Below are positions 30,117 to 48,143 of a stretch of 64,000 nt of DNA, piece after piece. Positions within the stretch are counted from its first letter, which is position 1; every line of letters starts with the position of its first letter. The stretch spans positions 19,582 through 83,581 of the forward strand of contig CAZATW010000001.1 of NCBI GenBank assembly GCA_964488185.1, in the 5' to 3' direction. The notes below the pieces were generated by a model, which was given only the letters and a program-made list of their open reading frames with translations, was not told the origin of the DNA and made no database searches. Origin of the DNA: an uncultured Coprococcus sp. GTDB taxonomy: Bacteria; Bacillota; Clostridia; Lachnospirales; Lachnospiraceae. The position numbers were made by a program, and so were the translations under genes.

Positions 30117-30145
30117 AAAAAGAGGCAGGTATCACTACCTGCCTC
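30117..30145 (-). terminator. Terminator of the pilus minor-pilin/adhesin operon
   Basis: GAGGCAGGTA-GTGA-TACCTGCCTC followed by TTTTT on the minus strand. Confidence 0.85.
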
Positions 30146-30168
30146 CTAAAATTATGTTTTCATTTGTT

Positions 30169-33100
30169 TTATGCCTGATTCAGTTTTTTCTCAGCTAATG
30201 CATCTATAGCCGGAATAACTTCATCGTTCTGAGTTAATTCAAACAATGGATCAGATGCTTTAATCTTAATCATTGCATAGGCAGGTGTTGTCTTACCTTC
30301 ATAGTAAACTTCTATTACTATGTATGTGTAATTACCACCATACGGCTGGAAGTATGAATCCTGAAGCTTGAGATTAGGATCCGTTCCACTTCTAAGCATA
30401 TCGGTTAGCTCTTTTTCAATCTCACTAATATCCTTTCCACCCTTAGATGTATATGACTTAATCAGAACATGTTCATCATTATCAATATATGACGGTCTGT
30501 TCTTATAACTTGAATCATCATAATCAAGATCATAATAAATATTAACTTTTGTAAGCTTTGTACCCTCAGGTATTGATACCTTCATATCAAATTCAGGAAT
30601 ATCTGTCTTATTGTCAACAGTTGTCTCATATACTGTCTGACCTTCAGCCACTGCTTCCTCATCCTTCTCAAGCTCGTCATCAGAAGTAAACGTACCTGTT
30701 GGCTCGTAAACCTTGATTGACGGTGTAGGAGGTACTGCTAAAGCACTATTTACAATAACATTGATAAACAGCTTTCTTTCATCATTGTTTCTTGTCGTCT
30801 TACCTGTAACTGATGAATGTCCGGCACCACAGTATGTAACTGCTCCGCTTCCGTATGAGGTTGTATAGATAAAGTAACCTTCCATTCCATCATATGGAGA
30901 AGCAGCATACTTGGAGGATCTGGTCTTTGCATCGGATGAATTATTTGAACCTGCAAGTGTATACCAAACGGTAATCTTATCACTTTCAAGATCAAGTGCA
31001 TATGTCTGCTGATGTGTACCTGCTATATTCAGCGATTCACCAATACTATATGGATAAAGTGTAATCAAACCTTCGTTAAGCCTGCTTGCTTTTACCGTCT
31101 CCGAACAAGCTGACTGGTCTGCATTTGCAGCTCCCGACCATGCTGTAGCCTGTGTAAATGATTCCTGTGCATATACATATGGAAGTGCTGTTGATTTACC
31201 GCCCTGATTACCATTATAATATAATGCCGTCATCGCAAGGCCACTGACATATAATGTAACGTCATTGCCCATTTTATTATAACTTGGATTTGTTGCACTT
31301 ACATTGGCATTAAAGCTGTTAATAATACCGCTACCCGCCTTCGTATTAAATGCATATGGTGTCATATAATATAAGCTTTCATCTGATGACTTAAACTCTA
31401 CATCTGTATATGAAGTACCATTATAAATTGGATTACCACCCGGATCAGCTTCTTTCCAAATGTATCCGGAAGTTCCTGCTGATGCAGCTCTTTTCGCAAC
31501 CCAAACTTCTCGACCCTGCTCTACTACATACAATTCCTCACAATTTTTGCTCGGATCATTCCACCAAATCAGGTCATAAACATATCCATCCTCTGCCAAG
31601 GTTCCCTGTACAAGTCCTGCCGGTGTAGCTGAAGTCACACTGCTTGCATAATCATTATTGGAAACCTTATAGCTATTTGCATTATTGGTCAGGTCAACAT
31701 GGAATCTATTCATTCCAACAACATCAAGCAATGACTTGGTAAGATTTACACTACCTGCATCCGCAAACGGTGTCATCGCATCATGGAAGAAGAACAAATC
31801 ACCGCCGGCTGACACATAATCAAGAATATAATTACATGTTGTCTGGTTAAAGTCTACCTTAAAGCCTCCAAATGAATCGGATGGTCCCAAAATCAGAATA
31901 GAATACATCTTCTTCATAAAGTCCTTACCGTAAGACCTTCTGAGATACTTATTGTACTCATCTCTTGCAAGAATTTCCTTATCCTTAACCTTTACATAAT
32001 CTGCATATAAATCTGCAAATTTCTGACCGTACATTGTAGGAATTTTCTTATTATTCCAATCAAATCCTGAGTTGTTACTATAAACAGGCCAGAATAACAG
32101 GTAATACTCATTGGTATCAATTACAAACTGAAGTATTTCTTTCTTCGTAGCATCAGATACACCACCCTTAAATCCACTGAAGAATCCTGAGTAGTTTACT
32201 GTTCCACTATATGTGCCATTCAATGAATCAAGTGCACCCTGAACATATTTCTGAATAGCCGTACGAGCAGGATCCACCTGTGCTGCAGCTGCAGAATATG
32301 CGGTAAGCTTTACAGGTACCTGTGCTGCATACTCAGCCTGAGTCAAACCGTCAACCTTACCACCGGCTTTCAGAGTCTCTGCCTCTGCTACCCAAGTGTC
32401 AAGGCAATCATAAACTGAGTCAACACCATCTTCCGTTTTAAATTTAGCCTGATTTGCTGATGCAACTACCATATCAAGATTAATATCATAATCATCTGCT
32501 ATCTCATCTGCAAGATTTGATAAATAGTCATCATTGCCTTCTCCAATATCATATTCAACAATACCGAATCTGTTTTCATGAAGACCAAGTGTAGCATACT
32601 GCGCAGCTGATACAGTATCAAGCTCAGTCTGATTTGCATAAGTATTATACTTTGCAATCTTATGAGCTGTCTGCGATGTTATATCAAAATATAACGTATC
32701 TGTAGCTGTCCATGATGTAGCACCCTGTCCCTCAGCCATAGTCTGAACCTGAAGAACATTGATTTCACTCTTTGAAACATTATTGTTAATGATTTTACTA
32801 AGACCTGTCTGTTCAGCTACTACTGTCTTTCCGGTAGCATCCTTAATAACAAGATACCATGAAGCAGCGCCGAAGAAATCCTGATCTACATTTAAACTTA
32901 CTGACTTCTCAACACCCGATGATACAATACCACTTGTATTATAATCATCAGAATTAAATGCCGTATTCTTATCCTTATCTACATAAAGCTCATACTTATA
33001 TTTAGAATCTGAACCGGTTACAGTAAATGTAAATGCCAAATTATTTGTCTTAATATATGTACTTGTTATTCCTTGTACATATTTTGTAGGCTTACTTGTG

Positions 33101-36100
33101 ATAGTAAGTCTTGTTCTGGTATTGGAATTGTTGACCAGATTATTAAGTGTATTGCTATAATCATTATTTAAGACTACAGCATATTTTTTAATTACATCAA
33201 TCTCTGAACCTGTAGTATACCAGTCATAACCCTGAGCATCTTCATCAAGATAACTCTTGTTTTCCTTTCGGTAATATGTGTAGTTTGTTTTTCCATACTC
33301 CTCAGACGTATTATCAATCATCTTTGTAGATGCCGGATCAAATCCCCACCAGACATTCGAACCATTTTTTCCTGTATATCTAGAATAGATATCTCCTATC
33401 AGTGTATACATCCTTGATGAAGGGTCAAGATACAGGTTGCCACGTTCAAGCTTACCGTTATTGTACCAGAAGCCCTGAAGCAGCTCCGTCTTTGACAATT
33501 TGTCTCCACTGGCATTTGTTCCCTGCATATTCTCATATACGGAAGAAAGCTCATTGCTTACTATTACCGGTCTGCCTGAACTAATATAATTTACCAATTC
33601 ATCATATTTGGTCTTCGTTAAGTCATTTCCGGCTTCTGCAATATAGGTATCCGTATAATATGTACCGCCAATATAAGGCGATGCCAACAACTTCGTACCT
33701 GTCACGGAACGGTCCATCTTATAGGTGCCTGCACCTTGCATCTTATTTATGAGTCCTGTATGATAGTACATCAAAAACGTAGGTAAACCTAAATAGGTAT
33801 AGCCAAATATGCTGCTGATTTGCAGCTGTCCGCCATACATCTCAGCCGGATTTCTGTCTAACGCACTGATATCACCACCAATATAAACCAAATCATATGT
33901 AGCAGCAATATCTTCCTTCATTCCGATAAGCGCCTCTGTAGAAACCTGCGTCAACTCGATATCACCATAATTAAGACCGTCGATTGCATATGCAATTTTT
34001 GCCTTTGTCAAATCAAACGCATAATATTCTGTCGATGCGGATGGAAGCTCCTCTTTTGCTTTTCCACTTTCAACATCGGACGGAACCGTATAATAATTAC
34101 CGGTTATCTTTGTCTTTCCATCACTCTTTGTTGTCCATGCAGTAGAAACTGATGGAAGGCTGCTCGCAACTTCTTCATCAATTGGATAATCAGGCTGAAT
34201 TTCAAGTACCTTGAACTTATTATCCGAGCCATCACGATATACACCTGCATTAATGATGTCTGCAATAGCCTTTGCAGATGGACTGTTTACAATGATTGTT
34301 GTACTTCCTGAACTACCAGTACTATTACCTGAGCCTTTTCCGTCACCGGCAGCAGAACTTACGATAACATATACGCCCTTTTCTACCGCATCACATAATG
34401 CATCATATGCAGTCTGACCGATCTCAGTAGAATAGCTACCTTTATCAATAAATATAAAATCATATTGTGTAAGATCTAATGGCTCAAAGCCCTGCTTTAA
34501 AGCCACCTGCTCTGTCGAATACACACTATAAAGGCTTTTTACATAATTAAAAACATCTGTGCTATTATCAAATTTCATATACTGATATAAAAAGTTATCC
34601 ATATAGTTATCCGGTTCATCAGTTACTTTATTTGAATAATCCTCATCAGTATTTACAGTAGTATAAAGATAGTTCTGCTGTTCTTCTGTTTCCTCACCAT
34701 TCTCATCAACAGCATTATCGACAACGAAATTATTATCACTTCTGCCGATTTTATAAGCAGTATACTTTTCATCAGAAGAAGATACCAACACAACATCATA
34801 TGTATAATCAGCATTTAATTTTGTAAACTCATACTTATAGGTGCATGTTCCATCTGAATTCTCTTCATAGTATTTACTATCACTATTTAACGCAAACTCA
34901 TAATGTGTTGAATCATCAAGACCAACATAATGATATACACCATTTTCATCCTTCGCTATAAGATATAGTTTCCAACCATCAAGACTGATTGTATTATCAC
35001 TATCTAGGGCCGGAATCACATATATACTTCCTGATATACTAGTTGTTTCTACATCTTTATAGTAGGAAGAAGCTAAACATATATCATCAAATGATGAGCC
35101 TGATGTAATAGCATTCATAAACTTTCCTGAATCTAATAAATAAAGATTAGCACCACTAGGAACATACGTTGCGCCATCATCATACATTAGTTCCGTGAGG
35201 ACACTATTTGATGCAGTATTAACAGCTTCCCATTTATTATTTTTATTATTAAATGAATAATCTGAAGCGGAAAACAATTCATTACTATTCATACTGCTCA
35301 TTGTATTAAACATTGCACTTGTTGTACCTTCAGAAATAATAAGGATATTGGCATTATCAAACTCCCATTCCTTTCTATCTCCTGTAATACCTTCTGCACT
35401 ACCTACCTTAGCATAATATGAATCTTCTGTTTCGCTAGTAACATTTTTATTCAAAAAGTCCTGAATAGACATGTCGTCATACCATTTATAATATGTATTA
35501 CGCTGTATGTATTCTTTTCCACCTTGATTTACGCCACGCTCAGCAGTAAGTATAAAGTCTGATATCGTCTTTGTCGTGTCAGGCATATCAGGAGTTTTTG
35601 TTCCTTGTTCTGCTTCTTCATAAAGGGTTTTAAAGAAATCCTCTTCTGTAACCAAGACATTGTCATATCTCGCCATCAGATTTTTTGTAATAAGCTTATA
35701 TGCCAGAGCACCCATTCGATAGGTATCATTATTACCTGAAATCGTAGTCGGGTCATCTGTACATAACGCTTTTCTACATATTGCGATTGGATGTCTGTCT
35801 GTAGTAGCATAAACATCCAACCAATTATATAACTCTTCACTAAGGTCTGCTCCGGACGCACCATAGTCCAATGAATTTGATGAAAAAATATAAATCATAT
35901 CAGCTCTGCCCAAAATCTCCTGAGCTGAAGTATTCATTGAATTAAGCTCACTTACCGTAACAGATGTAAGCTGTACAGCTCCCTCTGCCATTTCGGCATT
36001 TGTTATCGTCTTATATCCATTAAATACTGCTAATCTGAAATATTCATCACCATATATATATCTCCAAAGATATGATGTATTGCCCCAGTCACTTTCTGAT

Positions 36101-36426
36101 GTAACCTTTCCACTATAGTTAGCTGCTGTAACCTTTGCAGTAAGTGCTGTATCTGTTGCAGCTACTGATGACAATCCATCAGGAAGAATCTGTACTACGC
36201 GAAACTTATCGTCTCCTGTCGCTTTAAGACCTGCGTCATTAGAATTAATGACTGCAAGATCTATATTTGAATATCCGGTCAAGCTAGAACCAGAACTCGA
36301 ACCAGCATTCCCATTTGCTGTAGGAGAGCCTGAATTAGCCAAAGTGAAATTTACAAAAATAGAGCAAACTACAAGTGTAAATACAATAGCTATTGATGAT
36401 AAAATAACCTTTTTATTCTTAAACAC
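30169..36426 (-). CDS. 2085-aa secreted protein of the type IV pilus locus (DUF5057-like; putative PilY1-equivalent tip adhesin)
   Basis: N-terminal signal/TM, GTG start with GGAGGG RBS, 'FKVLEIQP' motif that I recall from DUF5057 proteins (not HMM-verified). Last gene of the minor pilin operon. Confidence 0.7.
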   Translation of the reverse strand: MFKNKKVILSSIAIVFTLVVCSIFVNFTLANSGSPTANGNAGSSSGSSLTGYSNIDLAVINSNDAGLKATGDDKFRVVQILPDGLSSVAATDTALTAKVTAANYSGKVTSESDWGNTSYLWRYIYGDEYFRLAVFNGYKTITNAEMAEGAVQLTSVTVSELNSMNTSAQEILGRADMIYIFSSNSLDYGASGADLSEELYNWLDVYATTDRHPIAICRKALCTDDPTTISGNNDTYRMGALAYKLITKNLMARYDNVLVTEEDFFKTLYEEAEQGTKTPDMPDTTKTISDFILTAERGVNQGGKEYIQRNTYYKWYDDMSIQDFLNKNVTSETEDSYYAKVGSAEGITGDRKEWEFDNANILIISEGTTSAMFNTMSSMNSNELFSASDYSFNNKNNKWEAVNTASNSVLTELMYDDGATYVPSGANLYLLDSGKFMNAITSGSSFDDICLASSYYKDVETTSISGSIYVIPALDSDNTISLDGWKLYLIAKDENGVYHYVGLDDSTHYEFALNSDSKYYEENSDGTCTYKYEFTKLNADYTYDVVLVSSSDEKYTAYKIGRSDNNFVVDNAVDENGEETEEQQNYLYTTVNTDEDYSNKVTDEPDNYMDNFLYQYMKFDNSTDVFNYVKSLYSVYSTEQVALKQGFEPLDLTQYDFIFIDKGSYSTEIGQTAYDALCDAVEKGVYVIVSSAAGDGKGSGNSTGSSGSTTIIVNSPSAKAIADIINAGVYRDGSDNKFKVLEIQPDYPIDEEVASSLPSVSTAWTTKSDGKTKITGNYYTVPSDVESGKAKEELPSASTEYYAFDLTKAKIAYAIDGLNYGDIELTQVSTEALIGMKEDIAATYDLVYIGGDISALDRNPAEMYGGQLQISSIFGYTYLGLPTFLMYYHTGLINKMQGAGTYKMDRSVTGTKLLASPYIGGTYYTDTYIAEAGNDLTKTKYDELVNYISSGRPVIVSNELSSVYENMQGTNASGDKLSKTELLQGFWYNNGKLERGNLYLDPSSRMYTLIGDIYSRYTGKNGSNVWWGFDPASTKMIDNTSEEYGKTNYTYYRKENKSYLDEDAQGYDWYTTGSEIDVIKKYAVVLNNDYSNTLNNLVNNSNTRTRLTITSKPTKYVQGITSTYIKTNNLAFTFTVTGSDSKYKYELYVDKDKNTAFNSDDYNTSGIVSSGVEKSVSLNVDQDFFGAASWYLVIKDATGKTVVAEQTGLSKIINNNVSKSEINVLQVQTMAEGQGATSWTATDTLYFDITSQTAHKIAKYNTYANQTELDTVSAAQYATLGLHENRFGIVEYDIGEGNDDYLSNLADEIADDYDINLDMVVASANQAKFKTEDGVDSVYDCLDTWVAEAETLKAGGKVDGLTQAEYAAQVPVKLTAYSAAAAQVDPARTAIQKYVQGALDSLNGTYSGTVNYSGFFSGFKGGVSDATKKEILQFVIDTNEYYLLFWPVYSNNSGFDWNNKKIPTMYGQKFADLYADYVKVKDKEILARDEYNKYLRRSYGKDFMKKMYSILILGPSDSFGGFKVDFNQTTCNYILDYVSAGGDLFFFHDAMTPFADAGSVNLTKSLLDVVGMNRFHVDLTNNANSYKVSNNDYASSVTSATPAGLVQGTLAEDGYVYDLIWWNDPSKNCEELYVVEQGREVWVAKRAASAGTSGYIWKEADPGGNPIYNGTSYTDVEFKSSDESLYYMTPYAFNTKAGSGIINSFNANVSATNPSYNKMGNDVTLYVSGLAMTALYYNGNQGGKSTALPYVYAQESFTQATAWSGAANADQSACSETVKASRLNEGLITLYPYSIGESLNIAGTHQQTYALDLESDKITVWYTLAGSNNSSDAKTRSSKYAASPYDGMEGYFIYTTSYGSGAVTYCGAGHSSVTGKTTRNNDERKLFINVIVNSALAVPPTPSIKVYEPTGTFTSDDELEKDEEAVAEGQTVYETTVDNKTDIPEFDMKVSIPEGTKLTKVNIYYDLDYDDSSYKNRPSYIDNDEHVLIKSYTSKGGKDISEIEKELTDMLRSGTDPNLKLQDSYFQPYGGNYTYIVIEVYYEGKTTPAYAMIKIKASDPLFELTQNDEVIPAIDALAEKKLNQA

Positions 36427-36444: not shown

Positions 36445-37305
36445 TTAATTCCATTCATGACTCTTAAGTACGAATGAATTTCTAAGACTCACTACCCCAT
36501 TTATATCATATGATGTACCTGCTTTAGGGTCGCTAAATTCCATAATAATTGCAAAAGTTCCTGTCTCAGGATTTACCTGTAATTGGAATTTGTCTACATT
36601 CTTACATAGGATATTTCCTTCTTCTGAACTATAATCCAAATAATATCTGGAATATTGTTCATTGAATGACACCTCATCTGATGAATATCTATATACATAT
36701 ATATTTCTGTCAGTTTCATCATACTTCAATGTGCAGTAGGTATAAATATTATCCTTCGTTGTTTCATCTATACCCGAAGCATATTTCATTGAAATATACT
36801 TTACGTCTATACACGTCTGTTCATCTGATGATGGTGTAGATGACTCCAAAAACGGTTTGATATCTGCAATATCATAACATTCCGACACATCTGGAACTGA
36901 ACCCGGGCCGGCAGCGCTCTGCTCTCTTTTTACAAGACTGCCTTTTTTCACAAGAACACCGTCTCCATCTTTCATATCCTCAATTCCTGTTCCGTCATAG
37001 CTTCCCGGAATAACAAAGTTTGCATCTTTTTTACTGTATGACGTTACTCCGGATGTAGTCACGCCTACCCATGCCTGACCCCGTATTCTTACATCAGTTG
37101 CACCCATCAGCATATCTGCTATCGCATCATACGTTTCTGTTGCCTGAGTCTGTAATTTTTTTCTTGATTTTACCTTACTATTGGAGGCCACCGTTGAACC
37201 TATCAGTGTCACCACAGCTACCATAAAAATACTTAAGATACCTATGTAAAGGATAAGCTCAATGAATGTGAAACCCCTGTTATCAGATTTTTTCAACATC
37301 CACAC
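36445..37305 (-). CDS. Minor pilin (PilW-like), class III signal peptide
   Basis: 'DNRG|FTFIELILYIGILSIFMVAV' with G|F cleavage and E5. Confidence 0.85.
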   Translation of the reverse strand: MWMLKKSDNRGFTFIELILYIGILSIFMVAVVTLIGSTVASNSKVKSRKKLQTQATETYDAIADMLMGATDVRIRGQAWVGVTTSGVTSYSKKDANFVIPGSYDGTGIEDMKDGDGVLVKKGSLVKREQSAAGPGSVPDVSECYDIADIKPFLESSTPSSDEQTCIDVKYISMKYASGIDETTKDNIYTYCTLKYDETDRNIYVYRYSSDEVSFNEQYSRYYLDYSSEEGNILCKNVDKFQLQVNPETGTFAIIMEFSDPKAGTSYDINGVVSLRNSFVLKSHEWN

Positions 37306-37308
37306 CTC

Positions 37309-37821
37309 CTATTTACCAAAGTAATGGCTTCCAGTAGATTCGTTAAGTGTAACTCTTCCAACAGCACCAGAACCACTCTTTCGGAACTCATATACTCCTG
37401 CTCCACTAACTACTGAACCATCCGCTTTTTTTAATTTGATTATCTGATTTCCTTCAAGCTTTATTGCACTCGTTTCACCCGTCTTGGTATAGTAAATATC
37501 TACTCTATCCATTTTGAGTTCTGCTGATGTTGAAGTCTGTGTCCATTTAGTCTCTGTTCCGTCAGAGCTTGTGCCAAAATAGACTTCATAACCATCGTCT
37601 ACTCTTTTTATCATCATTGCAGTATCTGCATCCTGTGCTCTCGTCCTAGTCGATAATACTGAAATTGTCGTATCAAAATTCTCTAATGCCGCACTAGCCT
37701 TTGCAGAGTTTATAGAGCTTATTGTCAACATCGCTATACCCGAAAGGATTGCAATAATTGCTATTACTATAATCAGTTCTACCAGGGAGTATCCATTATC
37801 ATTTTTTAATCTTTTTTTCAT
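37309..37821 (-). CDS. Minor pilin (FimU/PilH-like)
   Basis: 'NDNG|YSLVELIIVIAIIAILSGIA' with E5. Tyr rather than Phe at +1. Confidence 0.85.
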   Translation of the reverse strand: MKKRLKNDNGYSLVELIIVIAIIAILSGIAMLTISSINSAKASAALENFDTTISVLSTRTRAQDADTAMMIKRVDDGYEVYFGTSSDGTETKWTQTSTSAELKMDRVDIYYTKTGETSAIKLEGNQIIKLKKADGSVVSGAGVYEFRKSGSGAVGRVTLNESTGSHYFGK

Positions 37822-37833
37822 GCTCTATCCTCC

Positions 37834-40659
37834 CTATTCCACATTCTTCTTCCAATTTTCAAAAGCAAGAATGTCCTGATAAGAGATATCCGAAATAGAT
37901 GCTCCTGTAACTGATGAGCTGCTTCCCTCTGTCGATGCCTTATACTGGAGTAATATCTCTTTTGTTATAAGATTAACATCCTCATCTGTGCTCTCTGCAC
38001 ATGACTGCAACAGATTTGCAACATATGTCGCATCGGCTGATAGCGATATATCATAATTGCACTTAAGCTTAGAACCAGTTATAATTAGCCCCCTAAAGGA
38101 TTTTACAGATTTATCAAACGTAACATTTCCTGTAGCTATAATAATACCCTGAAGCTCTCCTTCTTCATTACTTGCACTAAGTGTTACGTCTCCTTTATTA
38201 ATAATTACTTTGCTATCACCAACGTCCGCATCAATGCTGACATTATGAGTGAATATATATGGGTAATTTACATAATTATGAAGTGGCGTAATACTATAAT
38301 CATATGAATAACTGTCATTATTCTTATTATAGTTATATGTATATTTTCCGCCACTCTGCTCTGTATATCCTGCAATTTCCCATGCAGAAATATTAAGCTT
38401 TGTCGCTTCATCAATCTTATCTGTTACGTCAAGATGATCCTTCATATTGATATACATATAAGTAAGGAAATTACTGATACGCTGCTCTGATGTATATGCA
38501 GTTCTGTTACTTGTGCTGTTCAGATTTGGATTGGTTGCCAATTCAGCAGATGCATCTTTCAAAGCTTCATATGTAAGATTATTTGCTCCCTGACTCTTAT
38601 TTCCAAGCAACATTGTAAATGTCTTTGATGCAGAAGCATTTTTTAGTGCCGTCTCAACATTTAGTGTCGTATCCGCAGAAGACTTATAGAACAATGAATC
38701 ATCTGCCTTCTGATATGTTACTGCCCCATTTGCATTTACTAGGCTTGTGTCTATATCCACATTTCCGGAAGACGGCAGAACAAGCTTTACCTCAAACTCT
38801 TCATAATTTGCTACATTATAAAGCTTTCCGGTAATTGCGTCTCCATATCCGCTGTTAAACATATCATAATACTTCTCGGCAAACTCTTCTGCGTTACTAA
38901 TGCCATCGTCATCATCATCACCTGCAGCAATATACAGATAATAATAGTCATGACCTGATACAGTCTGTTTAATCGCTGTTAGCTGATCACTTGAATCAAG
39001 GAAATCCTGATAAAGACTTCTCATCGTTGTATCAGCAGCAAATGTAGCAGGGAACCTCAGCTTAATCGTTGTAATTCCCGTATCAGCATCTGTATTTTCA
39101 CTGTTCGCAACAGGCTCCCACTGTGTAAGGAAAATTAACTGGTTAGATTTTACATCAAGTGACTGACCTGTCGAATAATCTTTCAGGGATGTAAATGCAA
39201 AATCCGCATTTTCATCTACCGTTATGCTTGTATCAGCAGGATTTACAGTTGATGCCGCTAACTTTGAAAACTCAATATATGACTTGCCTGCAATATAAAG
39301 TGAATCAAGGTTTTTTAAATTGAGTGTCGAGCCTTTACCGTTTACGATAACGGCACTGTCACTAAAGTGTGACTTAAGCTCATAGCCTGTTGCCAAATAA
39401 CCGGCTGTACGAAGAAGATTAACACTTCTTATATCATCTGCCGTATAGCTGTAACCAAAATATCTTCCTTTTGTAAATATCAGACTGGACTGTTCCGCAT
39501 TAAGCTCTGTATCATCATAAATATATGCGTTTGCCGCTGCGGTAATATTACCGCCCTTCGTACCCGCTATAATAATATTGTCTGCCCAAAGCTCTGACAA
39601 AAGTGAAGAACGACCAGAAAGACTTATTTCCGAGCCATTAAATGCAGAAAGTGCTCCCGGACAAACAATTATATCAGAAAGCATGGTAAGTCTTGCATTT
39701 TCACCATCAACATAAATTCCTGAATATACACTACTGTTTGTAGAGCCCCATGTGGTAGTCTTCTTCTTGTCATACTCCTCAGTAACCTTTGTGCTCGCCT
39801 TAGCATTATAGTCTTTATTATAATAATCGGAGGCTGCATAAATGTTACCTTTGATAGTTACATCCGTTCCCGTTGTAGCATCAATAACCTCTATACCCAT
39901 ATCTGCAAGTATTGCATAATTATATAGGCTATCCGATGCCGCATTAGCCATGTCAAATGAAACATTATATTCAGGCTCGACAAGAACAAGATCCGTTGTT
40001 ATAGACTGTTCATATGTTCCATAGGTTGCTCCTGCATCCGTCGGATCCATATTAATACTTCTCTTTACGCTTATATTCTTGAATGTTATTTTATTAACTG
40101 AGTCAAAATCAAAGCCGCTTTCCTTTATATCAGGTGCTATTTTATCATTTGCATAGAAGCCTCTCTTTAGTGTTTTTCCATTAGTGTCATGGAATACAAT
40201 CTGCAAATTAGTAGCATCCAAAGTTACGTTGTCATCCGATATAAACGACATCAAAGTACTCTTTAGCTTTCCTATATTCGTATAATTTTCATCTGAAATA
40301 ATACCCCTTATAAATAGTTTCTTAAACAATTTATTTGCTTCATCATTATCCAGATTCTTATACTCTTTGTTTTCATCATCATAAACAACAACTAATTCTG
40401 CCGTTGTTGTATATGCCTGATATAAGTACTCATTTGTAGTAGCACCTATACCTGCATATATTTCATCCATAGCCTTCTCAACACTATAAAAGTTATTCAA
40501 GGAATTCACTTTATAAAACTTTAGCTTATATGCCATCATTGCGCCAAGCAATAATGCTGAAACTAATATGCTCAGAAAGGTTGTAGAAACAATAACGAGA
40601 ACAAAGCTAGAACCATGATTATTCATTTTGCGAAGTCTATGTTTTATCTTCTTAATCAT
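37834..40659 (-). CDS. Giant (941 aa) PilX/GspK-like minor pilin
   Basis: 'NNHG|SSFVLVIVSTTFLSILV' lacks E5, as PilX/K-class pilins do. 'NFYSVEKAMDEI' follows the TM. Confidence 0.75.
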   Translation of the reverse strand: MIKKIKHRLRKMNNHGSSFVLVIVSTTFLSILVSALLLGAMMAYKLKFYKVNSLNNFYSVEKAMDEIYAGIGATTNEYLYQAYTTTAELVVVYDDENKEYKNLDNDEANKLFKKLFIRGIISDENYTNIGKLKSTLMSFISDDNVTLDATNLQIVFHDTNGKTLKRGFYANDKIAPDIKESGFDFDSVNKITFKNISVKRSINMDPTDAGATYGTYEQSITTDLVLVEPEYNVSFDMANAASDSLYNYAILADMGIEVIDATTGTDVTIKGNIYAASDYYNKDYNAKASTKVTEEYDKKKTTTWGSTNSSVYSGIYVDGENARLTMLSDIIVCPGALSAFNGSEISLSGRSSLLSELWADNIIIAGTKGGNITAAANAYIYDDTELNAEQSSLIFTKGRYFGYSYTADDIRSVNLLRTAGYLATGYELKSHFSDSAVIVNGKGSTLNLKNLDSLYIAGKSYIEFSKLAASTVNPADTSITVDENADFAFTSLKDYSTGQSLDVKSNQLIFLTQWEPVANSENTDADTGITTIKLRFPATFAADTTMRSLYQDFLDSSDQLTAIKQTVSGHDYYYLYIAAGDDDDDGISNAEEFAEKYYDMFNSGYGDAITGKLYNVANYEEFEVKLVLPSSGNVDIDTSLVNANGAVTYQKADDSLFYKSSADTTLNVETALKNASASKTFTMLLGNKSQGANNLTYEALKDASAELATNPNLNSTSNRTAYTSEQRISNFLTYMYINMKDHLDVTDKIDEATKLNISAWEIAGYTEQSGGKYTYNYNKNNDSYSYDYSITPLHNYVNYPYIFTHNVSIDADVGDSKVIINKGDVTLSASNEEGELQGIIIATGNVTFDKSVKSFRGLIITGSKLKCNYDISLSADATYVANLLQSCAESTDEDVNLITKEILLQYKASTEGSSSSVTGASISDISYQDILAFENWKKNVE

Positions 40660-41999
40660 TATTCCTTCCCCCTTGTTCCTGATATTTTAGTTTCGTGTCC
40701 TTCACTATCAGTAATCGTAACATTTATATCATATAAATATATTGAATCATTCTCGTCCTGTGATACATCCATAACATTTATATCTGAGTTAAGATTATCT
40801 GTAACAAAATTCGAATATACTTTGAGCTTATTAGTATCTCCTGCTTCCAAATTTACTCTTACTTTTACATTCTTCTGAGTAACTTTATGTTCACTGTTTC
40901 TATATACCAATTGTTCTATATCCGTAACTCCAAACTGTTGGCATATTATATCTTCGTAATCCTTATCTATATTAGATGCCGTTTCGAAAATATATATTTT
41001 CGGAGTAACATTGTCTCCTACAAGAGAAGAATTGTCTATGGTAATATAATCCTCAGAACAATATTTGCCATTATATATAGCAGGTTCATATAAAAGATAA
41101 ATAGGTGGAATCTCATCAAACTCCTGTCTGTATACTACTCCATTGCCATATGCTCCATCTGGTTTAAAAATATTTTTTGAGTTGCTGGTATAATCTGCAG
41201 CTATCACAGCTATCTTTGTCTGATCTTCATATCTTACCTCACATTCGATAACATATTTAGAGCCAGATTTTGATATTCTTATCGTAGTATACTTATTAAA
41301 AGAATCAGATGAAAAGATATTATCCCCTGAAAGATATTGATTATAATAAACAGTATAGTTTTTAATCAAATCAAGCTTAACATCTTTAAAATGCTCATAT
41401 GCCTGATTATCCAAATTATTTTCACTTACACCACTATTCTGGCCTGTATAAGTCGCACCCGTAATAATAGCAACCTGTTTATTATCCAAATTTCTAATAG
41501 TACCCGTAGCTGGCCTTGTTTCTATTGCATTGCCCTCGCCATCAATTTTATATGACTGTGTCTTGCTGTCATATACATACCCCTTTGAAGATACTGCATA
41601 AGGGGCACTGCTTACCGTGACCACACATGTGTATTTCTCAAAATCCGTTCCTATAGCCACATCATTACATGTGTATGTGTCAACCGTATATGATACGGTA
41701 GATGAATCCGGAAGCGTTATTGAGTTGATTTCTGATGTTGCATTTTTATTGAATACATACTCACTTGAAGATGATGCATCCCCATCTGAAATCGTTATAG
41801 TATCATTAAGGTCACACACCTTAAAATTTTCCATTAACTCCTCAGCCATCTCTGCTGCATACTGATTTTTGGTTGTCTCTTTGTTAGTACTTATAGCAGA
41901 TATCAGCTGAGTAGTAAGTGGAATAATTAAAATCGCAAATACAGCAATGGCAACAATCACTTCTACCAAGCTAAAGCCTTTATTATTTATTTTTGCCAT
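40659..41999 (-). CDS. Large (446 aa) PilV-like minor pilin
   Basis: 'NNKG|FSLVEVIVAIAVFAILII' with G|F and E5, followed by a long C-terminal extension. Confidence 0.82.
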   Translation of the reverse strand: MAKINNKGFSLVEVIVAIAVFAILIIPLTTQLISAISTNKETTKNQYAAEMAEELMENFKVCDLNDTITISDGDASSSSEYVFNKNATSEINSITLPDSSTVSYTVDTYTCNDVAIGTDFEKYTCVVTVSSAPYAVSSKGYVYDSKTQSYKIDGEGNAIETRPATGTIRNLDNKQVAIITGATYTGQNSGVSENNLDNQAYEHFKDVKLDLIKNYTVYYNQYLSGDNIFSSDSFNKYTTIRISKSGSKYVIECEVRYEDQTKIAVIAADYTSNSKNIFKPDGAYGNGVVYRQEFDEIPPIYLLYEPAIYNGKYCSEDYITIDNSSLVGDNVTPKIYIFETASNIDKDYEDIICQQFGVTDIEQLVYRNSEHKVTQKNVKVRVNLEAGDTNKLKVYSNFVTDNLNSDINVMDVSQDENDSIYLYDINVTITDSEGHETKISGTRGKE

Positions 42000-42022: not shown

Positions 42023-42781
42023 TTACTCTGCAGTTGTATCTCCGGTTGTTACTGTTTGTTTTACTGTCGGATTGCCAAATATATTATTTGTACCTGTCTG
42101 GACATTTACATCCGCATGGTCTGTAGTTCTGTCACCACCATTAACCGCATATGACGTAAATACAAGGTTTCCTTCATAATACCCCTCGTTATCATTAAAA
42201 GATATACTGATTTCATCAAGAGTCATTCTGAAATCACCGTCCTTGATATAATCAATAACAGACTTAATATCATTATAATCGCCTGTATAGGTCACAGGAA
42301 ACGTAGCTGAATAACAGTTATAACCATTTGCCGTAGCAACCATCTCGCCGTTTTCCGAGGTTTCTTCATTTTCAGCAGGTTCTGTATCAAGTGACACATC
42401 TCCAACGGCACCGGAGCCAAGTGTGTAGAACAATGTCTCCTCACCCATGGTTACACTTGGGAAATCCAATTTGTATTCATCCTTTATTCCCTGAAGATAC
42501 ATAATTGTATTATCCTGATATATCTCAGCAGGAAATTGTTTTAACAATTCCTCGTATTCAGCCTTATAGAAGGCTGTATCATCTATATACTGCTGTCTGT
42601 TATTGTCCTTTGCCTTTAAATCATTATAATATGTCTGACGTTCAGCTTTTTCGCTATCAATATTCTTCTTATCATCAAAATTTCCCATTGCAAGGAATCT
42701 GATAGGTAAGAAAATAATAGCTATACCTAATATAAATAAAAGTAAATTTCTTTGTCCCTTAGTAACTGTACTCATGTTCAT
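42023..42781 (-). CDS. pilO: PilO-like alignment protein
   Basis: N-terminal TM, coiled-coil region, ferredoxin-like C-terminus 'YTGDYNDIKSVIDYI'. Follows pilMN. Confidence 0.65.
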   Translation of the reverse strand: MNMSTVTKGQRNLLLFILGIAIIFLPIRFLAMGNFDDKKNIDSEKAERQTYYNDLKAKDNNRQQYIDDTAFYKAEYEELLKQFPAEIYQDNTIMYLQGIKDEYKLDFPSVTMGEETLFYTLGSGAVGDVSLDTEPAENEETSENGEMVATANGYNCYSATFPVTYTGDYNDIKSVIDYIKDGDFRMTLDEISISFNDNEGYYEGNLVFTSYAVNGGDRTTDHADVNVQTGTNNIFGNPTVKQTVTTGDTTAE

Positions 42782-42789
42782 GCCCTCCT

Positions 42790-44415
42790 CTACTCTATTG
42801 TTACAGCATTCTCATCAGCTGCAAGCTCATCTAAAAGAGCAGCTGTAGGATCTACATATATGCATGATACTGTAAAATCATATGTAACGCTATTTGTCTG
42901 TTCATCAACAACCTCATTTATAGAACCTATAAAAGTATTGTCAATACATTCAATATCCTTAAGATTGATTGCAAATGCTGCAATATCCTCATACTTTGGT
43001 GTCGTACCAGTTATACTAATACCTGTCGAATCTGAATTGAATGCTGTTATACTAATACCCTTTGGCATCTTGTCTTCAAGTTCTGTTATAAGTGTTCCAA
43101 CATACTCATTAAGGTTCTCTGTATAGCTATACATACTCATAGCATCAACATAAACACTCTCCGCTGCTTCATAATCCTGCACCACAATTTCAATATCTCT
43201 TATAGCCTCAATATCTTTGTTTACCTTATCAAGCTCATCCTGCGCCTTGTTCTTTGCTATGTAAGAATAAGCTGTAACGCCTCCGGCAACAATAATAGCT
43301 AATATCAGAAAAACTATAACAAGTGGCGTGGTATCAAATCCATTTCCGCTTCCGCTCTTTGCGCCTGTTTCTGTAAGAGCAAAGCCCATAGGTGCAAAAG
43401 CAGCGCCGATAGGAACCATGAGATATACAGGATTATAAATCTTTAAGTCAATTTTAGGGTCAAATTTTATATTGTACAGACTGTCCATAACTCTTGTAGA
43501 TACGTTCAGCTGTACCTTGAATAAGCCGTCTATTCCTTTAATAAGGGCGCCATCGCCTGTAAGGAATACATCATCTATTGGCTTATCCGGATTCTTGGAT
43601 GTGAAGAAATCCATCACACGACCAATGTTGTTTATAAGATATCTGAAAGCGCCTGTTATAGCATTATCATCAAAATCTACTGTAAGAAGTCTCTCATTCT
43701 GGAGCAGGGTCATGGCTGTCGTAGCATCTACACCCTTCGCATCCATAACTTCATTCACTACAACATTTGTACCATATGGTACTGTTCTCTGTAAGAGCAG
43801 TGTGTCTCCCTTCACAATGTTAAGTACTGTTGATTCACTACCTAACTGAATAACCATAGTAGTCATATTCTCGCTGGTCTGAGTCTTGATCAGCTGAAGC
43901 ATACTGTTACCAATGTAGTCAAGTGCAACCACCTTAAGACCTGCCATGGCAGCTACATCATAGTAAGAACGTACCATGTTCTCCGGAGCCGCAACAGCAA
44001 GCACTCTTAACTGTTTATTGTTTTCTTCATCAGTAACTGTTTCTAATACAGAATGTGATACTACGTAATCTTCTATATTAACAGGGAAATACTCTGATGA
44101 GTTCGCATTAATAATTCCTTTAATTTTGTTTTCTTTAACGAAAGGCACAACGACCTCTCTGTTAACGATTTTTGTAGAGGTAAGAACGAATATAGCGTTC
44201 TTATTTGATATTCCGTTTGCACTAAGCTGTCCTTTGATAGCTTCTGCTATCCTTTCCTTGTCTCTGATAACACCATCTTCGTATGAATCCTCCGGAGTCT
44301 CGAAGATAATGGCATTATGTACTGTCGATTGTTTCTTGTTTGAAGCCGTAGCTTCAACAATTGTAATACTTTCATTTGTAATGTCGATTGTTAAAACTTT
44401 GTTATTACTCGCCAT
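42790..44415 (-). CDS. pilM: PilM-PilN fusion
   Basis: Actin-like PilM ('LTIDI', 'YFPVNIEDYV', 'RTVPYG', 'VFLTGDGA.IKGI'), then a TM and a PilN-like domain ('MPKGISITAF', 'GISITG'). Confidence 0.85.
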   Translation of the reverse strand: MASNNKVLTIDITNESITIVEATASNKKQSTVHNAIIFETPEDSYEDGVIRDKERIAEAIKGQLSANGISNKNAIFVLTSTKIVNREVVVPFVKENKIKGIINANSSEYFPVNIEDYVVSHSVLETVTDEENNKQLRVLAVAAPENMVRSYYDVAAMAGLKVVALDYIGNSMLQLIKTQTSENMTTMVIQLGSESTVLNIVKGDTLLLQRTVPYGTNVVVNEVMDAKGVDATTAMTLLQNERLLTVDFDDNAITGAFRYLINNIGRVMDFFTSKNPDKPIDDVFLTGDGALIKGIDGLFKVQLNVSTRVMDSLYNIKFDPKIDLKIYNPVYLMVPIGAAFAPMGFALTETGAKSGSGNGFDTTPLVIVFLILAIIVAGGVTAYSYIAKNKAQDELDKVNKDIEAIRDIEIVVQDYEAAESVYVDAMSMYSYTENLNEYVGTLITELEDKMPKGISITAFNSDSTGISITGTTPKYEDIAAFAINLKDIECIDNTFIGSINEVVDEQTNSVTYDFTVSCIYVDPTAALLDELAADENAVTIE

Positions 44416-44854
44416 TTTAAATAGCCTCCCTCGCTAATCAGTAGTTTTTTTGAAGATAAAATCTTCTAATTGCCTGAGTACCAGCTTACCGCTGTTCACC
44501 CTATGTTATTATTATCTGTCCACATCTATGCGGACAAAAAGGTCAACACTATTCTGTCACCCTTTTTAAAAGTATGCACTTTCCACAAATACATCGACTC
44601 ATATGCATAAAGCAGAAAATGCCACTACTAAATAAAGTACCAGCCTAATAGTAAGCCAGCTGCCGCCATAAGTTTGTTGTCGATTGCTAAATCGCATATA
44701 CTTCATGCGGATTTGCAAGCAAGAAAACCGCTGACTGCAAAAGAGCGAGTATGAATAAAAAGCAATGCCTTCCACTTCATAATCAACTCAAAAACCATAC
44801 AGTAAGCCATCTCATCATCTTTCCGGCCACTATATTGATAAAAAGTATAATATT

Positions 44855-44921
44855 AGCATGGAACGGTAATAATATGTACAAAACTACGAGGAATGTAATA
44901 TACACAATTACCGTTCATGCT
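44855..44921. repeat. Long inverted repeat downstream of the major pilin
   Basis: AGCATGGAACGGTAAT (44855-44870) and ATTACCGTTCATGCT (44907-44921), with one bulge. Confidence 0.8.
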
Positions 44922-44987
44922 TCACCTATGCATTTTTTCTATCCCTATAGAATAGATTTGCGATTTTCACAAGCAAATCAACTTTTC

Positions 44988-45407
44988 TTACTTGTAAGCA
45001 GCATCTACATCAGGATATAACTCTGAGCTATTTACAGATACTGTAAATGTCTTTAAGTCAGATGAAAGCTGAATTACAAATTTTTGGCCTTTGTCATACT
45101 TTGGCTTAAATGAGCTCGTTCCAAGCTGGTCAGAAACTTCTGATGTGAATGCGTCACTCGAACCAAGCTGAGTACCATCATCATTTACTGTGTATGTTGC
45201 GCCAGCGGTTGCAGCGTCATAAGCATCTTCTACTGAAAGTGCATTTGTTACAGCTGTTGCAATTGTCTGTGCATTTGAAACATCTGTTGATCTTCTTGAC
45301 TTTGCAATGTACTTAATGAGTGCCGGTGCAAGAGCGCCTGCAAGAATTGCCATAATAGCAATTACGATAATTAACTCTACCAATGAGAAACCTTTGTTGT
45401 TCTTCAT
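44988..45407 (-). CDS. pilA: Major type IV pilin
   Basis: 'MKNNKG|FSLVELIIVIAIMAILAGALAPALIKY', 139 aa, own intergenic leader, AAGGAG RBS. Confidence 0.9.
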   Translation of the reverse strand: MKNNKGFSLVELIIVIAIMAILAGALAPALIKYIAKSRRSTDVSNAQTIATAVTNALSVEDAYDAATAGATYTVNDDGTQLGSSDAFTSEVSDQLGTSSFKPKYDKGQKFVIQLSSDLKTFTVSVNSSELYPDVDAAYK

Positions 45408-45590
45408 AATTATTCTCTCCTTTTCTTAAATAAATATCATCGTTTACATATGTTTATACATAAACTTATTTATTATTAAAACCGTCATCCTCGCACTGAC
45501 GAATTTAACCATTTGTTTACTATATTATTATATGATTATTATGTCGAGTCTTACATAAAAAATCTTCTTTGTATACTATGTATATACTAT

Positions 45591-46799: not shown

Positions 46800-46892
46800 T
46801 GTTTTTCCTCCGACCCAATCAATATTCTTATGTTGCGTATATTTACATAAAAACAACGCAAATATACAATCTACATGTAATTATATAAGTTT

Positions 46893-46924
46893 ATAATACT
46901 ATAACATGTTGATATAATCAACAT
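46893..46924 (-). promoter_or_regulatory. Candidate internal pilC promoter with a palindromic operator over the -35
   Basis: TTGATT (46921-46916), 17 nt, TATTAT (46898-46893). Perfect palindrome ATGTTGAT-ATA-ATCAACAT at 46906-46924. Confidence 0.45.
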
Positions 46925-46989
46925 TTAATTATTTTTAATATTTTTTTGTGTAAACTGCACAAACCATATTGTAATCTCCGCATTACATC

Positions 46990-48051: not shown

Positions 48052-48143
48052 AGCTTACGTCCATCCTTTCGTTTTTCATTAATAATTTCAATTTATTTCT
48101 TCGGATTTAGGCTTTTCATTCTAATCCGCAAGATACTTTTTTA

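What the first reader, a model, noticed from the sequence alone, without database searches (positions are those of the whole stretch)
36445..41999. Complete V-X-U-W-like minor-pilin set in which two pilins are giant modular proteins
Seen: four class III signal peptides, in proteins of 446, 941, 170 and 286 aa. The 941-aa one lacks E5 and contains a DDDDG acidic loop and a C-terminal 'GIIIATGNVTF...GLIITG' repeat suggestive of a beta-helix. The module is AT-richer than the motor genes (spot counts 18/60 at 41221 and 17/60 at 35281, versus 28/60 at 48661). Established: modular pilins with grafted adhesin domains are known in Streptococcus sanguinis and Clostridioides difficile, but typical minor pilins are about 150-250 aa. 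Inference: an exchangeable tip cassette carrying several hundred residues of uncharacterised domains.
Basis: partly seen in the sequence, partly recalled or inferred. Interest (0 to 1): 0.65.

Follow-up and report, generated by a model that had tools for sequence, protein, structure and literature searches.

The report
Giant minor pilins of Lachnospiraceae pili
Four genes after the type IV pilus motor of a Coprococcus-like gut bacterium encode the minor-pilin set that probably starts and caps the pilus; the two oversized members are a fixed feature of this operon in about 80 related genomes, match no known fold, and vary between strains by recombination.

Summary
The minus strand carries pilB-pilT-pilC-pilA-pilMN-pilO, then ORFs of 446, 941, 170 and 286 (probably 284) aa, then a 2085-aa DUF5057 protein. 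Three ORFs have canonical prepilin leaders with Glu5. The 941-aa ORF has a Gly-ended leader and a hydrophobic helix but no Glu5.

The set is not strain-specific. All eleven genes keep the same order and similar sizes in about 80 species-level Lachnospiraceae genomes. The 941-aa protein belongs to an unannotated family of 713-1275 aa (1044 cluster representatives) that almost never has Glu5 and keeps a C-terminal NWKKNVE strand. I read it as the GspK/PilX-class cap subunit.

AlphaFold models are confident (pLDDT 86 and 79), but Foldseek and profile searches find no relative for either large protein. The proposed beta-helix is unconfirmed and the DDDDDG loop is not conserved.

Motors are 88-100% identical to relatives and tip proteins 41-85%. 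Against a conspecific strain, synonymous divergence rises from 0.02-0.03 (pilB/T) to 0.45-0.84 (minor pilins). The pattern is a patchwork running from pilC to the giant gene, so alleles are exchanged by recombination rather than as one cassette. Low GC is shared by all relatives and does not indicate foreign origin.

Tip location and adhesive function are inferred.

The parts
40659..41999 (-). 446-aa minor pilin with Glu5. It has a pilin module (helix 11-61 and five strands to about residue 130), a flexible linker (about 160-195), and a C-terminal alpha/beta module (196-446) of unknown fold.
   Evidence: N_methyl 31 bits. Sub-threshold PilV TIGR02523 hit, E 1.7e-7. AF2 pLDDT 78.6. Foldseek PDB finds nothing below E 0.28. 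The family is 399-687 aa in about 77 orthologs.
37834..40659 (-). 941-aa pilin-like protein without Glu5 (GspK/PilX class by its features). It has a 72-residue N-terminal helix, a strand-rich and highly conserved centre (about 248-470), a helical region (589-742), strands 809-874 that hold the GIIIATGNVTF and GLIITG motifs, a disordered linker, and a conserved terminal strand (931-940, ...FENWKKNVE). Its start overlaps the stop of the 446-aa gene (TAATG).
   Evidence: No Pfam or NCBIfam family. AF2 pLDDT 86.3, pTM 0.74. Foldseek PDB and BFVD find nothing below E 0.17. No ortholog or full-length representative with a readable leader has Glu at +5, apart from one representative. C-terminal motif conserved.
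37309..37821 (-). 170-aa minor pilin with Glu5; weakly GspH/FimU-like.
   Evidence: N_methyl 31.8 bits. TIGR01708 gspH E 1.1e-7, below its cut-off. A profile search against the PDB matches only the N-terminal helix.
36445..37305 (-). 286-aa minor pilin with Glu5 (284 aa if it starts at ATG 37299). It is GspJ/PilW-like only by elimination.
   Evidence: N_methyl 24.9 bits. A profile search against the PDB matches only the N-terminal helix. Start codon.
42023..49880 (-). Upstream genes of the same operon: pilB 48144-49880, pilT 46990-48051, pilC 45591-46799, major pilin pilA 44988-45407, pilMN fusion 42790-44415, pilO-like 42023-42781.
30169..36426 (-). 2085-aa secreted DUF5057 protein, starting 18 nt after the fourth minor pilin. 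It is the candidate non-pilin partner of the tip complex. The motif ...RIKIKxxxxLF[DEN]LT lies near its C-terminus.
   Evidence: DUF5057 36.4 bits. Found directly after the fourth pilin in most loci. C-terminal motif.
30120..30147 (-). The only strong terminator-like hairpin on this strand (12 pairs). It closes the transcription unit after the giant gene.

Best explanation
The four genes encode the core minor-pilin set of a retractile type IV pilus (PilB, PilT, PilC, PilMN, PilO) that is vertically inherited in Lachnospiraceae. By analogy with GspH-I-J-K and FimU-PilV-PilW-PilX, the set would assemble in the membrane as the complex that primes polymerisation, and it would then ride at the pilus tip.

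Proposed roles:
- The 941-aa protein is the K-class cap. It has a prepilin-like leader ending in Gly and no Glu5. It is the largest subunit, and its conserved terminal beta-strand probably completes its own pilin sheet.
- The 170-aa protein is the H-class adaptor to the major pilin.
- The 446- and 286-aa proteins take the I/J positions.
- The 446-aa protein carries an extra module of about 250 residues on a flexible linker.

Together the two large subunits would expose about 1000 residues of folds with no known relative at the tip, probably as a binding head, alongside the downstream 2085-aa DUF5057 protein.

Because these parts face outwards they diverge much faster than the motor. Conspecific strains carry old, divergent alleles that homologous recombination shuffles in patches.

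Shown here: the anatomy, the family-wide conservation, the absence of Glu5, the lack of known folds, and the mosaic divergence.
Inferred: cleavage by the prepilin peptidase, tip location, the priming role, and ligand binding.
For: - Leaders and Glu5: three canonical prepilin leaders with Glu5, plus one leader without Glu5.
- Absence of Glu5 is family-wide: among 77 orthologs the +5 residue is M, L or V in 72 and never E. Among 113 full-length cluster representatives, 112 have the N-terminal hydrophobic helix and only 1 has Glu at +5. The leader Gly is nearly invariant.
- Weak class signals: GspH for the 170-aa protein and PilV for the 446-aa protein.
- Operon structure: the genes are translationally coupled, with a TAATG overlap and gaps of 3-18 nt, and the only strong terminator lies after the giant gene.
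- Synteny: the same eleven genes occur in the same order in about 80 species-level genomes.
- Models: the 446-aa model shows a pilin module, a low-confidence linker and a second module. The 941-aa model is confident and ends in a strand at 931-940. The tail D[IV][LV]xFxNW[KM]KNV[ED] is the most conserved part of that protein outside its N-terminal helix.
- Published parallel: K-class subunits such as GspK and CpaL supply a terminal strand in cis, around large and partly dispensable middle regions (PMC13533445).
- Divergence: identity gradient. dS is 0.02-0.03 in pilB/T and 0.45-0.84 in the minor pilins against a conspecific strain, with dN/dS 0.12-0.33. Mosaic identity profile.
Against: - No sequence or fold match links any of the four globular parts to GspH/I/J/K, PilX or any solved minor pilin.
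- The H/I/J assignments rest on sub-threshold hits that cover mainly the N-terminal helix.
- Model coordinates could not be read, so which sheet the terminal strand joins is unknown.
- No prepilin peptidase gene is in the window, and the rest of the genome could not be searched.
- No expression data were found.
- The centre of the 941-aa protein is its best conserved part. This fits a conserved partner or enzymatic role at least as well as a variable adhesin.
Confidence: 0.7

Rival explanations
1. The 941-aa protein is not a filament subunit. It is an uncleaved bitopic membrane protein, anchored by its N-terminal helix, that acts at the base of the machine. It might guide the pilus through the thick Gram-positive wall or remodel peptidoglycan with its conserved central domain.
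For: - It has no Glu5 and no N_methyl signature.
- Its strand-rich centre, with invariant Asp, His, Ser, Asn and Gln residues, is the most conserved region after the N-terminal helix and the C-terminal tail.
- There are faint hints of a pectate-lyase-like fold: Foldseek rank 2 is Pel3 at E 0.3, and one family member hits Pectate_lyase_5 at E 0.14.
- How monoderm pili cross the wall is an open question (PMC6916266).
Against: - A Gly is nearly invariant at the end of the leader, and a Gly-ended leader was readable in 104 of 113 representatives. A plain signal anchor would have no need for it.
- Absence of Glu5 is exactly the GspK/PilX signature.
- The gene sits inside a translationally coupled block of three true pilins.
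- The lyase-like hints are all far below significance.
Confidence: 0.12
2. The machine is mainly a secretion or display device, a pseudopilus in the manner of type II secretion. Its job would be to export or present the 2085-aa DUF5057 protein, and the four minor pilins would form the piston tip rather than an adhesive pilus tip.
For: - The giant gene follows the fourth pilin by 18 nt in one transcription unit, and it does so in most loci.
- The minor-pilin set is of the H-I-J-K type shared with type II secretion.
Against: - A pilT retraction ATPase and a separate major pilin gene with highly variable alleles are present. Both are typical of true surface pili.
- The giant protein has an ordinary Sec-type signal peptide and does not need a pseudopilus to cross a single membrane.
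Confidence: 0.08
3. The divergence of the tip genes is only relaxed constraint on poorly functional or decaying genes. It does not reflect maintained allelic diversity of a working tip.
For: - Low identity to relatives.
- In one metagenomic contig (L086) the 170-aa ortholog and the giant gene are each split in two.
Against: - dN/dS is 0.10-0.33 in every comparison, which indicates purifying selection.
- Reading frames, lengths and order are kept in about 80 species.
- The jump in synonymous divergence from 0.02 to 0.45-0.84 cannot arise from relaxed protein constraint.
Confidence: 0.03

Closest known systems
GspH-GspI-GspJ-GspK of type II secretion, and FimU-PilV-PilW-PilX (PilH-I-J-K) of Gram-negative type IVa pili
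   Same: - Four co-transcribed minor pilins.
- Exactly one of them lacks Glu5 and is the largest.
- In the pilus versions they are followed by a large non-pilin protein (PilY1/PilC).
- They are proposed to prime assembly and cap the fibre.
   Different: - There is no detectable sequence or fold relation outside the N-terminal helix.
- The gene order here is [446]-[K-like]-[H-like]-[286].
- The K-class member is 941 aa (family range 713-1275 aa), which from my own knowledge is roughly three to five times the size of GspK or PilX.
- The downstream giant is a DUF5057 protein, not a PilY1 beta-propeller.
- The host is a monoderm and has no secretin.
CpaL/TadG of Tad pili (about 600 aa), ComZ of Thermus (beta-solenoid insert) and CofB of ETEC: large tip-located pilin-like subunits
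   Same: - A large domain carried by a pilin-like subunit at the tip.
- For CpaL, an N-terminal pilin-like domain, a long middle region and an extreme C-terminal strand needed for assembly (PMC13533445).
- ComZ, CofB and GspK are cited as tip adhesins (PMC9556784, PMC8179133).
   Different: - No homology was detected. ComZ and CofB did not appear among the Foldseek matches.
- The protein here is larger.
- It is conserved along its whole length rather than in a pilin core alone.
Modular pilins PilB (vWA) and PilC (lectin) of Streptococcus sanguinis
   Same: - Monoderm type IVa pilus.
- Minor pilins of about 450-490 aa.
- For the 446-aa protein, a small pilin module joined by a linker to a bulky second module.
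   Different: - The S. sanguinis modules are recognisable domains that are shared with many other proteins.
- The module here has no Pfam or PDB relative and occurs only in this pilin family.
- S. sanguinis has three minor pilins rather than four.
PilV-PilU-PilK of the primary Clostridioides difficile pilus operon
   Same: A clostridial operon of the form pilA-pilB-pilC-pilMN-pilO followed by minor pilins that are proposed to form a tip complex (PMC9556784).
   Different: - C. difficile has three genes, not four.
- No DUF5057 giant is reported there.

Membership tests
Type IV pilin (class III signal peptide, PF07963/TIGR02532) | Short basic leader ending in Gly, hydrophobic N-terminal helix, and Glu at +5 | tested here: met
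   The 446-, 170- and 286-aa proteins score 31.0, 31.8 and 24.9 bits against a cut-off of 21.2. Their mature N-termini read FSLVE, YSLVE and FTFIE.
Type IV pilin (class III signal peptide, PF07963/TIGR02532) | The same signature in the 941-aa protein | tested here: not met
   No N_methyl hit, and Leu at +5. The family profile matches a pilin N-terminus only at E 0.16.
Type IV pilin fold | Long N-terminal helix packed on an antiparallel beta-sheet | tested here: inconclusive
   The secondary structure of the 446-aa model fits: helix 11-61 followed by five strands. Coordinates could not be inspected, and Foldseek returned no pilin. The 170- and 286-aa proteins were not modelled.
GspK/PilX (K-class) minor pilin | Prepilin-like leader with Gly at -1 but no Glu5 | tested here: met
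   Gly16 is nearly invariant. The +5 residue is M, L or V in 72 of 77 orthologs and never E. Only 1 of 113 full-length representatives has Glu at +5.
GspK/PilX (K-class) minor pilin | Encoded together with three Glu5-bearing minor pilins | tested here: met
GspK/PilX (K-class) minor pilin | Sequence membership in T2SSK (PF03934) or PilX_N (PF14341) | tested here: not met
   No such hit even at E 0.1. The only recurrent hit is DUF2572, below threshold, in 8 of 21 C-terminal pieces.
GspK/PilX (K-class) minor pilin | A domain inserted in the pilin sheet, with a C-terminal strand that completes the sheet | tested here: inconclusive
   A terminal strand at 931-940 is predicted and strongly conserved. 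Its pairing partner could not be read.
GspK/PilX (K-class) minor pilin | Forms the tip complex with the I- and J-class pilins | not testable with these tools
   No multimer prediction tool was available.
Modular pilin (pilin module plus grafted functional module) | Pilin module joined by a linker to a separate module | tested here: met
   In the 446-aa model, pLDDT is below 50 at residues 163-171 and 185-193, between two confident parts.
Modular pilin (pilin module plus grafted functional module) | The extra module is a domain also found outside pilins | tested here: not met
   No Pfam family and no PDB fold. A search restricted to residues 196-446 returns only members of the same pilin family.
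Beta-helix / beta-solenoid domain (as in ComZ) | Fold match or internal repeats | tested here: inconclusive
   There are many short strands at 248-470 and 809-874. The best Foldseek beta-helix match is Pel3 at E 0.3 and TM 0.19. The motif region shows no significant similarity to the strand-rich centre (z 0.2). Only scattered single weak hits to solenoid families were seen.

The most novel reading that the evidence does not exclude
Lachnospiraceae pili carry a five-protein tip of about 3900 residues: the four minor pilins plus the DUF5057 giant. Its K-class subunit would represent a new family of the largest pilin-like proteins known (713-1275 aa). The conserved, solenoid-like centre of that subunit, with invariant acidic, aromatic and His residues, would be a glycan-binding or glycan-cutting head. 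Such a head could let the pilus pass the thick wall, or seize dietary or host polysaccharide. Strain-specific mosaic alleles would tune the outer surface.
Probability: 0.2. Interest if true: 0.75.

Novelty: new variant of a known kind. Interest (0 to 1): 0.5.

Why it matters
Lachnospiraceae are among the most abundant human gut commensals, yet I found no study of their type IV pili in the searchable literature.

This work defines a conserved operon whose tip subunits have no annotation, no Pfam or NCBIfam model and no structural relative. NCBI labels the 941-aa family 'hypothetical protein'. The family exceeds the largest modular pilin (860 aa) counted in the 2021 InterPro census (PMC8179133).

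The operon offers three things:
- A monoderm test case for the H-I-J-K priming model and for the terminal-strand licensing model (PMC13533445).
- Candidates for gut adhesion or wall-crossing functions.
- An example of within-species allele shuffling of pilus surface parts in a commensal.

It does not reveal a new principle, because large tip pilins and variable pilin loci are already known.

Tried and rejected
- **Foldseek.** Both models against the PDB, and the 941-aa model against BFVD, gave nothing below E 0.17.
- **Profile searches.** All four family profiles against PDB sequences matched only the N-terminal helix.
- **Pfam and NCBIfam on excised pieces.** The centre (residues 240-520) gave no consistent family. 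The C-terminal region gave only sub-threshold DUF2572 hits in 8 of 21 members. I could not establish what DUF2572 is, and no searchable paper mentions it.
- **Internal repeat test.** Comparing the GIIIATG/GLIITG region with the strand-rich centre was not significant.
- **Calcium-binding reading of DDDDDG.** Rejected, because the loop varies even among close relatives.
- **Foreign origin from low GC.** Rejected, because the same GC gradient occurs in four relatives with full synteny.
- **Positive selection at gene level.** Not seen; dN/dS is 0.10-0.33.
- **Sequencing runs.** None were listed for expression or strain data.
- **Model coordinates.** Not readable, so no domain parsing or contact analysis was possible.
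- **Other calls.** The first alignment was too divergent for the search for related loci. One Pfam call exceeded the residue limit.
Full report
**1.

The minus strand carries a tight gene row:
- pilB 48144-49880
- pilT 46990-48051
- pilC 45591-46799
- a 139-aa major pilin, 44988-45407
- a pilM-pilN fusion, 42790-44415
- a pilO-like gene, 42023-42781
- ORFs of 446 aa (40659-41999), 941 aa (37834-40659), 170 aa (37309-37821) and 286 aa (36445-37305)
- a 2085-aa gene, 30169-36426

The 446-, 170- and 286-aa products pass Pfam's N_methyl threshold. After the leader Gly they read FSLVE, YSLVE and FTFIE.

The 941-aa product reads KMNNHG|SSFVLVIV. It has a leader and a hydrophobic helix, with Leu at +5 and no N_methyl hit.

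The fourth gene most likely starts at ATG 37299, giving 284 aa.

The 446- and 941-aa genes overlap in TAATG, and the other gaps are 3-18 nt. The only strong terminator-like hairpin on this strand follows the 2085-aa gene, at 30120-30147. The four genes are therefore the middle of one transcription unit.

**2. The set is ancestral in Lachnospiraceae**

The 941-aa protein has hundreds of full-length relatives of 935-974 aa. The few that carry names come from Coprococcus and are labelled 'hypothetical protein'.

Four related contigs show the identical eleven-gene order between the same neighbours, sigK on one side and aroE/aroK on the other.

A scan of one genome per species found 183 genomes that encode a relative, almost all of them Lachnospiraceae. 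In the 80 loci fetched, every gene of the operon recurs in the same order. Size ranges are:

| Gene | Ortholog size (aa) |
|---|---|
| 446-aa pilin | 399-687 |
| 941-aa protein | 842-1073 |
| 170-aa pilin | 163-243 |
| 286-aa pilin | 258-427 |
| 2085-aa giant | 1685-2416 |

An exhaustive HMMER search of a library clustered at 50% identity gave 1044 representatives at E<=1e-3 and 390 at E<=1e-10. Of the 113 full-length ones among the best 150 (713-1275 aa, median 976), 112 have the N-terminal hydrophobic helix and only one has Glu at +5.

Giant size is thus a fixed property of a large, unannotated family. It is not a graft peculiar to one strain.

**3. What the four proteins are**

The 941-aa protein has the defining features of the GspK/PilX class:
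- A Gly-ended leader; the Gly is nearly invariant.
- No Glu5. Among 77 orthologs the +5 residue is M, L or V in 72 and never E.
- It is the largest of four co-encoded minor pilins.

It is not a sequence member of T2SSK or PilX_N.

The 170-aa protein gives a sub-threshold GspH hit (E 1.1e-7) and the 446-aa protein a sub-threshold PilV hit (E 1.7e-7). The 286-aa protein is J/W-like only by elimination. Profiles of all four families match solved structures only in the N-terminal helix.

**4. Structure**

*The 446-aa model.* With 64 sequences it reaches pLDDT 78.6. It shows:
- a helix at 11-61 and five strands up to about residue 130, which is a pilin module;
- a low-confidence linker, with pLDDT below 50 at 163-171 and 185-193;
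- a confident alpha/beta module at 196-446.

*The 941-aa model.* With 80 sequences it reaches pLDDT 86.3 and pTM 0.74. It shows:
- a 72-residue helix at 17-88;
- a region of many short strands at 248-470;
- a helical region at 589-742;
- strands at 809-874, which contain GIIIATGNVTF and GLIITG;
- a disordered Ser-rich linker;
- a final strand at 931-940.

Foldseek finds nothing significant for either model in the PDB, or for the larger one in BFVD. The best E-values are 0.28, 0.28 and 0.17.

A pectate lyase beta-helix ranks second for the 941-aa model, at E 0.3 and TM 0.19. That is no more than a hint. The motif region shows no significant sequence similarity to the strand-rich centre. Excised pieces give no consistent Pfam family apart from sub-threshold DUF2572 hits in 8 of 21 C-terminal pieces. 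The beta-helix idea stays open.

The DDDDDG loop varies even among close relatives.

**5. Conservation along the 941-aa protein**

The protein is conserved over its whole length, with only a few indel-rich stretches at 151-200, 676-725 and 751-775.

The best conserved parts are the N-terminal helix, the centre at 326-475 and the last 16 residues. The tail D[IV][LV]xFxNW[KM]KNV[ED] is kept even in orthologs of 25-30% overall identity.

A recent study shows that K-class subunits (GspK, CpaL) use an extreme C-terminal strand to complete their pilin sheet and license assembly, around large and partly dispensable middle regions (PMC13533445). The tail here fits that picture, but I could not read the model's contacts.

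The 2085-aa protein also keeps a motif near its C-terminus...RIK[IV]xLxxxLF[DNE]LT, and about half of its orthologs end exactly there. This is a lead for attachment in the manner of PilY1.

The module of the 446-aa protein (residues 196-446) was found only in this pilin family. 'Grafted domain' is therefore not shown.

**6. Conserved motor, variable tip, and how exchange happens**

Amino-acid identity to four relatives:

| Protein | Identity (%) |
|---|---|
| PilB / PilT / PilC | 88-100 |
| PilMN | 86-95 |
| PilO | 73-87 |
| Four minor pilins | 42-85 |
| 2085-aa giant | 55-86 |

BLAST on the same loci puts the lowest minor-pilin value at 41%.

The closest strain, L001, is conspecific, with 99% nucleotide identity across sigK, pilB and pilT. 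Synonymous divergence (dS) against that strain differs sharply along the operon:

| Gene(s) | dS vs L001 |
|---|---|
| pilB, pilT | 0.02-0.03 |
| pilC | 0.42 |
| pilA | 1.29 |
| pilO | 0.74 |
| Minor pilins | 0.45-0.84 |
| 2085-aa giant | 0.32 |

A sliding-window profile shows a patchwork:
- Blocks of 98-99% identity: the PilM part of pilMN, the first 400 nt of the giant gene, and 32000-33200.
- These alternate with blocks of 55-91% identity.

One divergent tract runs without a break from the PilN part of pilMN through pilO and all four minor pilins.

The tip alleles of the conspecific strain are as far from the window's alleles as those of a sister species, L006. Further alleles exist in L086 and L087.

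dN/dS is 0.10-0.33 throughout, so selection is purifying.

Old, divergent alleles of the outward-facing parts are therefore shuffled by homologous recombination in several tracts. No discrete cassette carrying different domains is swapped.

The lower GC of these genes (0.33-0.38 against 0.41-0.43) recurs in every relative. It says nothing about recent import.

**7. Mechanism and rivals**

I hold at about 0.7 that the four proteins form the priming and tip complex of a retractile pilus. In this reading the 941-aa protein is the cap and the 446-aa protein a second display subunit. I confirmed its synteny claim.

The less likely readings are:
- The 941-aa protein is an uncleaved membrane or wall-crossing factor (0.12).
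- The machine is a secretion or display pseudopilus for the giant protein (0.08).
- The tip genes are simply decaying (0.03). This is contradicted by the dN/dS values and by the conserved reading frames.

Tip location, leader cleavage and ligand binding are all inferences.

**8. Novelty**

The kind of system is known: H-I-J-K-type minor pilins, large tip pilins such as GspK, ComZ, CofB and CpaL, modular pilins, and variable pilin loci (PMC8179133, PMC9556784, PMC13533445).

What is new:
- A clade-wide variant in which the K-class subunit is about 940 aa (up to 1275 aa in the family).
- A second subunit that is bimodular.
- No recognisable folds in either large subunit.
- No literature or annotation for the family.

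I score it as a new variant of a known kind, of moderate interest.

Noticed in passing
window 44988-45407 (pilA): The major pilin is 80% identical to that of a distant Coprococcus species (L004/L007) but only 56% identical to that of the conspecific strain L001. pilA alleles therefore appear to be shared across species. L004 also carries two tandem pilA genes (138 and 141 aa).
   Followed up: partly
window 30169-36426 (2085-aa DUF5057 gene), last about 60 codons: The motif YTYIVI...RIK[IV]xLxxxLF[DNE]LT near the C-terminus is conserved in about 70 orthologs. About half of them end exactly at ...LT. It is a candidate terminal strand for docking onto the K-class pilin, as in PilY1/PilC.
   Followed up: partly
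window 43600-44415 (PilM part of pilMN) against L006: This segment is 96-98% identical in nucleotides to the sister species L006, whose backbone identity is only 82-93%. This suggests recombination between species.
   Followed up: no
L086:5615-6128 and L086:7002-13488: In one metagenomic contig the 170-aa ortholog is split into ORFs of 49 and 115 aa, and the giant gene into ORFs of 1041 and 1134 aa. These could be real frameshifts or assembly errors.
   Followed up: no
whole window: A crude motif scan found no prepilin peptidase (PilD) signature and no further pilin-like N-terminus.
   Followed up: partly
window 37834-38150 (C-terminal 100 residues of the 941-aa protein): C-terminal pieces of the family give recurrent sub-threshold hits to Pfam DUF2572 (8 of 21 members, best E 4.5e-4). 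From memory, which I could not verify here, DUF2572 is a Pasteurellaceae family that may belong to the comNOPQ minor-pilin operon. There are also scattered single hits to beta-solenoid families (FapA, ice-binding, FwdC, CatB).
   Followed up: partly
window 44416-44987: An unusually long non-coding gap of about 570 nt lies between pilA and pilMN. It contains only a weak terminator-like hairpin at 44639-44660. Identity to the conspecific strain L001 is also low across this stretch (about 69% in the 500-nt bin at 44500, which also covers the last bases of pilA).
   Followed up: no
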